Of a stretch of DNA of 61,363 nucleotides, positions 2,825 through 4,038 are shown one piece after another. This DNA comes from Escherichia coli (GTDB taxonomy: Bacteria; Pseudomonadota; Gammaproteobacteria; Enterobacterales; Enterobacteriaceae). The notes beneath the pieces were generated by a model that was given only the letters and a program-made list of their open reading frames with translations, had not been told where the DNA came from and ran no database searches. How positions within the stretch are numbered: position 1 is the first letter of the stretch; every line of letters starts with the position of its first letter. The stretch lies in assembly GCF_003334785.1 (NCBI RefSeq), contig NZ_QOWV01000020.1. The stretch is one strand, 5' to 3'. Made by a program: the position numbers and the translations under genes.

Positions 2825-4038
2825 TTAATGCGTAAAAATAGTTTGCTGATAATGTATACTCTGAATTCGATGTATCACAGATTCATGTTCAGGCATGTCG
2901 GAAGCATTGCTTGTCTCCACCGCTAGGGATGCAAAGGCGCTGGCATAACACAGTGCTGATTCCAGTGATTTTCCTTTCGCAAGTCCTGATGCCAGAGAGC
3001 CGTTAAACGCATCCCCGGCTCCTGCCGTATTTTTAACGACCGCTGGAAACGCTGGCGAATGAATGAATTTTTTGCCATCAAATGCGAGCGAGCCCTTGCT
3101 ACCGAGCGTGATAACCGTGTTTTTTACCCCTTTATTGTGGATAGCTTCTGCAGCTCGTTTAGCTGATTCAAGATCGTGTACGTCTATGCCGGACAGTAAA
3201 CCAGCTTCTGTTTCATTGGGGGTGATATAATCAACATCCTGAATAAGTTCGTTGACGATATCATTATAGGGTGCCGGGTTAATAATGACCGGGATACTGT
3301 TTTTTTGCGCCAATGTGATCGCTTGTTGCAGAGCGGTATAATTTGTTTCGAGCTGCAGAAGTATGACATCAGAATTAATAATCGCTTCTTTCTGAATAGT
3401 TATTTCATCGGACGACATTGTCATGTTGGCACCGGGATAGATCGCAATAACATTATCGCCAGTACCTTCATTAACAAGGATCGTGGCAGTTCCGGTTTGC
3501 GTTTCTTTCGTTTGATAAATTATACTTTTATAAATCTTAGACGAATTCATAAAGTTGATCGCATAATCACTAAAGTGATCTGTACCTACTTTTGTTATGA
3601 AATAAACATCAGTATCGGCAAAGCTTGCTGCCAGCGCCTGGTTACAGCCTTTTCCCCCGGTGAAAATATAAAATTACTTGCCAGAAGCGATTCTCCGATA
3701 GTGGGAAGCCTCGGCAAATAACTGATGATATCAACATTAAACGAACCAATAACGCATACTTGACTTTTCATAGTTGAGTGGCCTTTTTTTATTCCCTGGG
3801 CTGTATCATAATTTTCAAGCGCATAAGCGATTTCATTTTTCGCAATAGTATCAAGCGAGTCTAGGACGATAAAAGCACCGCCATGACATCGAGTCAGATA
3901 GCCAAGCCTGGCAAGTTCATTAAGATCTGAACGAATAGTTTCTTTCGTTACATTGAGGCTATTGGACAGATCGGATACTTTTACAGAACCGAATTTACTG
4001 AGTCGTTTCAATATTTCATGATGGCGTTCAAATTTCAT
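2825..4038 (-). pseudogene. DeoR-type HTH fused to PfkB/ribokinase-family kinase (YeiI-like architecture), disrupted by a 1-bp frameshift
   Basis: ORF 3595..4038 encodes a DeoR-like HTH then a ribokinase-like N-terminus (...VCVIGSFNVDIISYLPRLPTIGESLLASNFIFSPG). The expected GGKGCNQALAA motif continues in the adjacent frame and joins ORF 2825..3550, which carries the PfkB signature NTAGAGDAFNG. The shift maps to the C5 run at about 3654..3658 (G5 on the coding strand). Confidence 0.6.

What the first reader, a model, noticed from the sequence alone, without database searches (positions are those of the whole stretch)
3650..3662. Frameshift at a G5 homopolymer in the HTH-PfkB kinase gene
The kinase glycine-rich motif (SPG-GKGCNQALAA) is split across two frames exactly at a C5 run (G5 on the coding strand, followed by A4). 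One extra G would restore a single ORF of about 404 codons. A homopolymer at the lesion means it could be slipped-strand variation or a sequencing artefact rather than a fixed mutation.
Basis: seen in the sequence. Interest (0 to 1): 0.5.

Follow-up and report, generated by a model that had tools for sequence, protein, structure and literature searches.

The report
Frameshifted rikA ribokinase pseudogene in E. coli
A one-base deletion in a run of six G's has inactivated the E. coli copy of the recently described sugar-kinase gene rikA; the lesion is real, inherited and already annotated in hundreds of public genomes, so it is an ordinary pseudogene inside a decaying operon.

Summary
The minus-strand gene at 2825-4038 has G5 (C5 at 3654-3658 on the + strand) inside the ribokinase motif SPGGKGCNQALAA. 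Adding one G restores a 404-aa protein identical to the intact allele of E. coli A27.

The gene is the E. coli orthologue of Salmonella STM3547/RikA: a DeoR HTH fused to a PfkB ribokinase, 80% identical, in the same four-gene operon.

- The G5 allele is in at least 229 of 1,974 complete-genome records that carry the gene.
- Its 147-aa truncated product is on more than 1,800 public contigs.
- RefSeq annotates it as "frameshifted", for example in UTI89.
- It sits on at least three haplotype backgrounds, so the G6 tract is a recurrent deletion hotspot, yet tract length is stable within clones.
- The tract is specific to E. coli; Salmonella, Citrobacter and Budvicia use other Gly codons.
- The HTH-kinase fusion is the norm in homologues.

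In this window the rest of the operon is also damaged. The transporter has a W203* stop, and the phosphotriesterase is cut by an IS66-family element.

Verdict: a fixed frameshift pseudogene in a decaying islet. Low interest.

The parts
2825..4038 (-). rikA pseudogene (E. coli orthologue of Salmonella STM3547; DeoR HTH + PfkB ribokinase). It is 1,214 nt here against 1,215 nt in intact alleles.
   Evidence: RefSeq calls the identical sequence 'PfkB family carbohydrate kinase / ribokinase RikA, frameshifted'. It is 80% identical over 404 aa to the Salmonella protein.
3654..3658 (-). G5 tract (C5 on the + strand), the site of the 1-bp deletion. Intact alleles have G6 = CCG GGG GGA AAA (Pro127 Gly128 Gly129 Lys130).
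3595..4038 (-). Truncated 147-aa ORF: 128 native residues plus a 19-residue out-of-frame tail, with a TAA stop at 3595-3597.
   Evidence: The exact protein is on at least 1,000 public contigs. PGAP names it 'DeoR family transcriptional regulator' WP_021523135.1 in strain Z217-4.
3856..4032 (-). DeoR-type helix-turn-helix domain (residues about 3-61), intact.
   Evidence: NCBIfam AgaR and DeoR models match residues 3-61. PF08220 is found in all full-length homologues.
3769..3771 (-). Met90 codon, the start of the kinase-only isoform shown experimentally in Salmonella. It lies upstream of the frameshift, so that isoform is truncated too.
   Evidence: for the position; PMC13432705 section 2.5 for the isoform.
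2825..3673 (-). Kinase reading frame downstream of the lesion. It is open from 3673, but the first start codon is the ATG at 3550 (Met157), giving a 241-aa fragment. That fragment matches only positions 72-295 of the 298-position ribokinase model.
2053..2811 (-). GATase1-like gene (STM3548 homologue), 252 aa, intact; the second gene of the operon.
1031..1996 (-). DMT_YdcZ transporter pseudogene (STM3549 homologue) with TGG>TAG at codon 203 (window 1388-1390).
   Evidence: The same stop is present in strain 55989, whose rikA is intact.
397..1028 (-). Phosphotriesterase-family gene (STM3550 homologue), truncated after residue 210 of 344.
1..396 (-). End of an IS66-family element (N-terminus of the TnpA accessory protein) that interrupts the phosphotriesterase gene.
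   Evidence: NF038385, E = 1.2e-36. It is multicopy in E. coli, and the junction is absent from all 5,426 complete genomes.
4234..4572 (-). IS66-family transposase fragment just upstream of rikA, a marker of the islet's mobile-element history.
   Evidence: Mapped from the annotation of L001.

Best explanation
This is a fixed loss-of-function allele of rikA.

1. A replication-slippage deletion of one G in a six-G tract (CCG GGG GGA AAA) shifts the frame at codon 129. That codon is the second Gly of the GG dipeptide in the ribokinase sugar-binding motif. (Shown; the slippage mechanism is inferred.)
2. Translation from Met1 gives a 147-aa protein: the DeoR HTH, a linker, 39 residues of kinase and a 19-residue nonsense tail. 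Translation from Met90 gives a 58-aa peptide. (Shown from sequence.)
3. No start codon allows the rest of the kinase to be made before Met157. The enzyme, whose catalytic Asp343 lies far downstream, is therefore not produced. (The sequence part is shown; loss of activity is inferred.)
4. The deletion is inherited vertically in the lineage the window belongs to. (Shown by identical alleles in many genomes.)
5. The same tract has been hit independently in other E. coli lineages. (Shown by haplotypes.)
6. This happens because the four-gene rikA operon is dispensable and decaying in E. coli. In this strain the transporter already carried a nonsense codon, and the phosphotriesterase is cut by an IS element. 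(The lesions are shown; the relaxed-selection reading is inferred.)

Population data (E. coli complete genomes):
- 1,973 of 5,426 genomes (1,974 records) carry the site.
- The exact G5 85-mer is in 187 records.
- The exact G6 86-mer is in 385 records.
- Most of the rest are G6 plus one SNP.
- G5 on the B2-type haplotype is in 41 records, including UTI89, NU14, IHE3034, UM146 and APEC O18.
- SW4848 has G5 on a third haplotype, plus a 4-bp deletion.
- Ten records are 100% identical to the window over 1,701 bp.
- The truncated product is on at least 1,000 and 857 contigs.
- RefSeq flags the gene as frameshifted.

Stability within clones:
- At least eight O104:H4 records plus 55989, and seven Res13 pig isolates, are all exact G6.
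- The listed G5 records on the B2-type haplotype are O18/UTI89-type strains that I know as ST95; each carries the exact G5 85-mer.

Tract and architecture:
- The tract is not conserved: Salmonella has CCC GGC GGT, S. bongori CCC GGT GGC, Citrobacter CCT GGA GGC and Budvicia CCT GGC GGA.
- The fused architecture and the operon are conserved.
- The GG motif aligns with Gly41-Gly42-Lys43...Asn46 of E. coli RbsK, E = 5e-52.

Other lesions in the operon:
- DMT W203* and the IS66-cut PTE in the window.
- The W203* stop is also in 55989, where rikA is intact, so it is older than the frameshift.
- UTI89 has a different DMT stop, Q25*.

Background:
- Indel rates in E. coli rise exponentially with homopolymer length (PMC8510543).
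Against: - Reads for this particular assembly cannot be inspected. A G6-to-G5 miscall in this one window is therefore not formally excluded.
- 385 records share the same 85-base flank haplotype with G6.
- Some singleton variants could be long-read homopolymer errors: SW4848 with G5, 74-2 with G7 and E29 with G8.
- No expression or enzyme data exist for the E. coli gene.
- A P-site -1 slip of tRNA-Gly on G GGG would restore the exact wild-type sequence, so trace read-through cannot be excluded.
Confidence: 0.9

Rival explanations
1. Assembly or sequencing error in this window only: the strain really has G6 and an intact rikA.
For: Homopolymer length errors are a common artefact. The flanking 85 bases are identical to those of 385 G6 records.
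Against: - Ten independent complete genomes are 100% identical to the window over 1,701 bp, including the G5 tract.
- The closest locus fetched (VE-F10) is 99.99% identical over 9.9 kb with no gaps.
- The allele is on more than 1,800 contigs.
- Two other operon genes are dead in the same window by lesions that are not homopolymer errors: a nonsense SNP and an IS insertion.
Confidence: 0.04
2. Phase-variable contingency locus: the G tract switches rikA ON (G6) and OFF (G5 or G7) at high frequency by slipped-strand mispairing.
For: - G5, G6, G7 and G8 lengths all exist in E. coli genomes.
- G5 arose on at least three haplotypes.
Against: - The tract has only 5-6 bases. From my own knowledge, phase-variable homopolymers are typically 7-8 bases or longer.
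- Tract length is uniform within clonal sets.
- G7 and G8 are single genomes among about 1,958 records, and G4 is absent.
- The tract results from synonymous codon choice in E. coli only.
- The rest of the operon is irreversibly damaged here.
Confidence: 0.03
3. The frameshift is decoded: a programmed or leaky -1 ribosomal shift (tRNA-Gly slipping on G GGG), or transcriptional slippage, yields functional RikA.
For: From the sequence, a -1 slip of the P-site tRNA from GGG (bases 4-6 of CCGGGGGAA) to the overlapping GGG would give P-G-G-K-G, the exact wild-type sequence.
Against: - There is no X XXY YYZ heptamer in frame and no SD-like element upstream.
- The downstream RNA is no more structured than shuffles, z = -0.45.
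- The flanks are identical in G6 alleles, which need no shift.
- About 88% of alleles are in frame.
Confidence: 0.02
4. Gene fission with retained function: the 147-aa HTH fragment survives as a stand-alone DeoR-type regulator, and/or the Met157 fragment survives as a kinase.
For: - The HTH (residues 3-61) is intact.
- PGAP annotates the fragment as a DeoR family regulator in one genome.
- In Salmonella the kinase is made separately from Met90, so the two halves are partly independent.
Against: - All homologues are fused.
- The Met157 fragment lacks ribokinase model positions 1-71, including the GG motif and the N-terminal sugar-binding residues.
- The presumed regulatory target, its own operon, is itself inactivated here.
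- In Z217-4 the downstream part has gained a second frameshift, as expected under no selection.
Confidence: 0.05

Closest known systems
Salmonella enterica RikA (STM3547), McCormick et al. 2026, Mol Microbiol (PMC13432705)
   Same: - Both are 404 aa and 80% identical.
- Both have a DeoR HTH (residues about 2-57) plus a PfkB ribokinase domain.
- Met90 and the catalytic Asp343 are conserved.
- The motif FSPGGKGCNQAL is identical.
- The downstream genes are the same: GATase1-like, DMT_YdcZ and PTE.
   Different: - The window copy is frameshifted at codon 129.
- Salmonella codes the motif as CCC GGC GGT AAG, with no G run.
- The E. coli copy sits in an IS-littered islet next to cobUST rather than at the Salmonella locus.
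- The Pro210 used as a control residue in the paper is Ser in E. coli.
E. coli ribokinase RbsK (PDB 1RKD/1GQT)
   Same: The PfkB fold family is shared. Residues 94-380 align at E = 5e-52, and SPGGKGCNQALAA aligns with AFGGKGANQAVAA, i.e. Gly41, Gly42, Lys43 and Asn46 by my count of the chain numbering. The role of these residues in ribose binding is from my own knowledge of the RbsK structures.
   Different: - RbsK has no HTH domain.
- The window protein, even when repaired, scores below the RbsK equivalog cut-offs: TIGR02152 284.2 against 299.65, and PRK11142 253 against 341.
- Its genomic context differs.
The same frameshifted allele already annotated in RefSeq (e.g. UTI89_RS10935, QQK65_RS08830, RS156_RS00760 'ribokinase RikA, frameshifted')
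   Same: The lesion is the same G5 tract at the same codon. VE-F10 and nine other genomes are 100% identical to the window over 1,701 bp.
   Different: The UTI89-type allele is on a different haplotype (five SNPs) and has a different transporter lesion, Q25*. It is therefore an independent origin.
   Same: The general architecture is shared: an N-terminal HTH fused to a PfkB kinase.
   Different: It is not an orthologue. It scores 43.6 bits against a cut-off of 561 on the sugar-kinase model PRK09954; that this model represents YeiI is my recollection, not something the tool output states. The HTH here is DeoR-type, and the kinase is closest to ribokinases.

Membership tests
RikA / STM3547 orthologue group (DeoR-HTH-PfkB ribokinase) | Full-length similarity to the characterised Salmonella protein | tested here: met
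   80% identity over 404 ungapped residues to the S. enterica cluster P0007; 82% to S. bongori.
RikA / STM3547 orthologue group (DeoR-HTH-PfkB ribokinase) | N-terminal DeoR HTH plus a C-terminal PfkB domain with both signature regions and the catalytic Asp343 | tested here: met
   The HTH spans residues 3-61.
RikA / STM3547 orthologue group (DeoR-HTH-PfkB ribokinase) | Conserved operon rikA - GATase1_like - DMT_YdcZ - PTE | tested here: met
   The order is the same in the window (remnants) and in S. enterica, S. bongori, Citrobacter and Budvicia.
RikA / STM3547 orthologue group (DeoR-HTH-PfkB ribokinase) | Ribose kinase activity | not testable with these tools
   Activity has been shown only for the Salmonella enzyme (PMC13432705). 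The window allele cannot encode the full kinase.
Canonical ribokinase RbsK (NCBIfam equivalog TIGR02152 / PRK11142) | Score at or above the curated cut-off | tested here: not met
   284.2 bits against 299.65, and 253.4 bits against 341, for the intact allele.
Frameshift pseudogene | The reading frame is disrupted relative to intact conspecific alleles and orthologues, with no alternative start that rescues the domain | tested here: met
   G5 against G6 is the only difference from the A27 allele. The first start codon in the kinase frame is Met157. The fragment covers only model positions 72-295.
Phase-variable (slipped-strand) contingency locus | A repeat tract long enough for high-frequency slippage (usually 7-8 or more for homopolymers; from my own knowledge) | tested here: not met
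   The tract is G5 here and G6 in intact alleles.
Phase-variable (slipped-strand) contingency locus | Tract length varies among near-identical isolates | tested here: not met
   The O104:H4 records and the Res13 series are all G6. The listed G5 records on the B2-type haplotype are O18/UTI89-type strains (ST95 by my own knowledge) and all carry the exact G5 85-mer. This is indirect, because no reads or single-colony data were available.
Phase-variable (slipped-strand) contingency locus | The tract is maintained in orthologues | tested here: not met
   There is no G run in Salmonella, S. bongori, Citrobacter or Budvicia.
Programmed -1 ribosomal frameshift | A slippery heptamer X XXY YYZ with a stimulatory element, and the frameshift conserved among relatives | tested here: not met
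   There is no heptamer in frame. The downstream fold has z = -0.45. About 88% of E. coli alleles and all orthologues are in frame.
YeiI | Match to the PRK09954 model at its cut-off (that this model represents YeiI is my recollection) | tested here: not met
   43.6 bits against 561.

The most novel reading that the evidence does not exclude
Loss of the rikA operon may be adaptive rather than neutral in some E. coli lineages, with the G6 tract serving as the preferred and repeatedly used inactivation target. Two observations would fit this. The same 1-bp deletion arose independently in UTI89-type B2 strains and in the window's haplotype group. Each is paired with a different nonsense mutation in the transporter.
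Probability: 0.1. Interest if true: 0.4.

Novelty: already known. Interest (0 to 1): 0.12.

Why it matters
It matters little on its own. For annotation, these bases should be called a rikA pseudogene, not two genes (a 'DeoR regulator' plus a 'partial ribokinase') and not an assembly error.

There is modest value for work on the still-unknown physiological role of the rikA-STM3548-3550 operon. E. coli offers natural isogenic-like ON (G6; for example ST131 strain 751, whose rikA, GATase and DMT genes are intact and whose PTE gene is annotated without defect) and OFF (G5, such as UTI89-type strains and the window's lineage) alleles. The operon is absent from about 64% of complete genomes.

It is also a clear example of a coding homopolymer acting as a recurrent indel hotspot.

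Tried and rejected
- Counts of G4 and G7 alleles. There are no exact matches on the common haplotypes. Only single genomes carry G7 (strain 74-2) or G8 (strain E29), which may be real or long-read errors. This gives no support for bidirectional switching.
- A frameshift-stimulating RNA structure downstream of the tract. None was found.
- The idea that the window's first 396 bases continue the phosphotriesterase gene. Rejected: they belong to an IS66-family element.
- YeiI orthology. Rejected.
- Naturally split regulator and kinase genes in relatives. Rejected: full-length relatives listed from about 46% to 100% identity are fused. The shorter entries are partial sequences or Met90-start calls.
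- I did not resolve whether the hapA G5 genomes are one clade or several. These are the small-genome strains and the lineage carrying an IS3 insertion between rikA and the GATase gene.

Full report
**Observation.** The + strand at 3650-3662 reads ttttCCCCCggtg, with the C5 run at 3654-3658. The gene lies on the minus strand at 2825-4038. From the ATG at 4038, frame 0 gives 128 residues ending ...NFIFSPG. It then gives 19 out-of-frame residues and a TAA at 3595-3597, for 147 aa in all. The other frame is open from 3673 and reads FYIFTGGKGCNQALAAS... down to 2825. Adding one G yields a 404-aa protein with no internal stop.

**What the gene is.** The window is E. coli chromosome next to cobUST, ldtA, tRNA-Asn and nac. 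The intact allele (strain A27, WP_000667430.1) differs from the window by G6 versus G5 and nothing else across 1,565 aligned bases. Its residues 3-61 match DeoR-type HTH models, and residues 94-387 match ribokinase models. It aligns with E. coli RbsK structures at E = 5e-52. In that alignment SPGGKGCNQALAA lies over AFGGKGANQAVAA, which is Gly41, Gly42, Lys43 and Asn46 of RbsK.

Some RefSeq records name the gene rikA. The name comes from McCormick et al. 2026 (PMC13432705). They showed that Salmonella STM3547 is a ribose kinase with catalytic Asp343. Under their conditions it is made from Met90 without the HTH. It heads a conserved cluster, STM3547-3550: a GATase-like gene, a DMT transporter and a phosphotriesterase. 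The E. coli protein is 80% identical to the Salmonella one, with Met90 and Asp343 conserved. The four-gene order is the same in S. enterica, S. bongori, Citrobacter and Budvicia. Full-length homologues listed from about 46% to 100% identity are all about 402-412 aa with PF08220 + PF00294.

**Is the G5 real?** Of 5,426 complete E. coli genomes, 1,973 (1,974 records) carry this stretch.
- The exact G5 85-mer is in 187 records.
- The exact G6 86-mer is in 385 records.
- Most of the remainder, about 1,350 by subtraction, are G6 with one nearby SNP (G402A), the allele seen in ST131.
- A G5 query carrying that SNP matches 41 records exactly. These include UTI89, NU14, IHE3034, UM146, APEC O18, PMV-1 and several FDAARGOS assemblies.
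- SW4848 has G5 on a third haplotype, together with a 4-bp deletion.

G5 is thus in at least 229 of 1,974 records, about 12%. Ten records are 100% identical to the window over 1,701 bp. The exact 147-aa truncated product is on at least 1,000 contigs, and the B2-haplotype version is on 857, from NCBI, ENA, JGI and Logan. RefSeq annotates these alleles as frameshifted pseudogenes. The allele is a genuine and widespread variant, not an artefact. Only a miscall in this particular assembly remains formally possible.

**Fixed mutation or switching tract?**
- The G5 alleles on the two main backgrounds differ at five SNPs within the gene. One SNP lies 16 bases after the tract (3' of it). The two backgrounds also carry different lesions in the transporter gene: W203* in the window's haplotype and Q25* in UTI89. 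The deletion therefore arose independently at least two or three times.
- Within clonal sets the length is constant. At least eight O104:H4 records plus 55989, and seven pig isolates of one series, are G6. The listed G5 records on the B2-type haplotype are O18/UTI89-type strains (ST95 by my own knowledge), and each carries the exact G5 85-mer.
- No G4 exists. G7 and G8 occur in one genome each.
- The G run is produced by E. coli-specific synonymous codons (CCG GGG GGA). Salmonella, S. bongori, Citrobacter and Budvicia encode the same invariant peptide without any run.
- Indel rates in E. coli rise exponentially with homopolymer length (PMC8510543). G6 is the only G/C run of six or more in the gene.

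The picture is an ordinary mutational hotspot hit repeatedly in a dispensable gene and then inherited clonally. It is not a contingency locus.

**Consequences.** The frameshift lies downstream of both Met1 and Met90, so both isoforms are truncated. The first start codon in the kinase frame is Met157. The resulting 241-aa fragment covers only positions 72-295 of the 298-position ribokinase model. It lacks the N-terminal sugar-binding residues and the GG motif.

A -1 slip of tRNA-Gly on G GGG could in principle regenerate the wild-type peptide. However, there is no canonical slippery heptamer and no upstream SD-like element, and the downstream RNA is unremarkable (z = -0.45). The flanks are also identical in alleles that need no shift. 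The HTH-only fragment might still bind DNA; this is untested.

**Context: a decaying operon.** In the window the GATase-like gene (2053-2811) is intact. The DMT transporter (1031-1996) has TGG>TAG at codon 203. The phosphotriesterase gene is cut after residue 210 by an IS66-family element occupying window 1-396. That junction is found in none of the 5,426 complete genomes.

The W203* stop is also present in strain 55989, whose rikA is intact. The transporter was therefore lost before the kinase.

Other strains show further independent damage:
- an IS3 insertion and a GATase frameshift in TUM1223;
- an IS3-family/group II intron insertion truncating the DMT gene in A27;
- a second rikA frameshift in Z217-4;
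- a 4-bp deletion in SW4848.

The islet is flanked by IS66, IS4 and ISL3 fragments and a ggt remnant, and it is absent from about 64% of complete genomes.

**Verdict.** It is an already annotated pseudogene of a known gene family, created by a common mechanism. The only mildly notable points are the recurrent use of the same G6 tract in separate lineages and the availability of natural ON and OFF alleles of a gene characterised only in 2026.

Noticed in passing
window 1-396 and the junction at 396/397: The end of an IS66-family element (N-terminus of the TnpA accessory protein, NF038385, E = 1.2e-36) interrupts the phosphotriesterase-family gene after residue 210. No complete E. coli genome in the collection has this junction, so it looks like a strain-specific insertion.
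   Followed up: partly
window 1388-1390 (minus-strand gene 1031-1996): The DMT_YdcZ transporter gene has a TGG>TAG nonsense codon (W203*). The stop is shared with strain 55989, where rikA is intact. UTI89-type strains carry a different stop (Q25*, CAA>TAA) in the same gene, which is parallel inactivation.
   Followed up: yes
window about 23200-53400: A yersiniabactin-type high-pathogenicity island. It contains a TonB-dependent siderophore receptor (23201-25222, minus strand), ORFs of 3,163 and 2,041 aa (28831-44535, minus strand) and a salicylate synthase (50726-52030, plus strand). An integrase-like ORF (52224-53150, minus strand) matches only positions 159-396 of a 413-position integrase model and sits next to tRNA-Asn at 53301-53376.
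   Followed up: partly
window 9518-9593, 11927-12002, 13751-13826, 53301-53376: There are four tRNA-Asn(GTT) genes, three of them clustered within 4.3 kb around nac/cbl-like ORFs, plus tRNA-Ser(CGA) at 54368-54457. No other Rfam family reached its gathering score in the window.
   Followed up: no
L012 (E. coli Z217-4), locus 2726-3938: PGAP annotates the same G5 allele inconsistently between genomes. Usually it is one 'frameshifted' pseudogene. In Z217-4 it is a protein-coding 'DeoR family transcriptional regulator' (WP_021523135.1, the 147-aa fragment) plus a frameshifted 'ribokinase'. That genome also has a second 1-bp deletion at gene position 673.
   Followed up: partly
L014 (E. coli E29) 1541-1548; L015 (E. 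coli 74-2) 1541-1547: Single genomes carry G8 and G7 at the same tract; 74-2 also has a C>T change just downstream. These may be real expansions or long-read homopolymer errors.
   Followed up: partly
window 3769-3771 and PMC13432705 section 2.5: In Salmonella the kinase is translated from Met90 without the DeoR HTH. The conserved fusion may therefore encode two isoforms, and whether the full-length HTH-kinase is ever made is an open question in the literature. Met90 and its upstream AAAAAAAGG stretch are conserved in E. coli.
   Followed up: no
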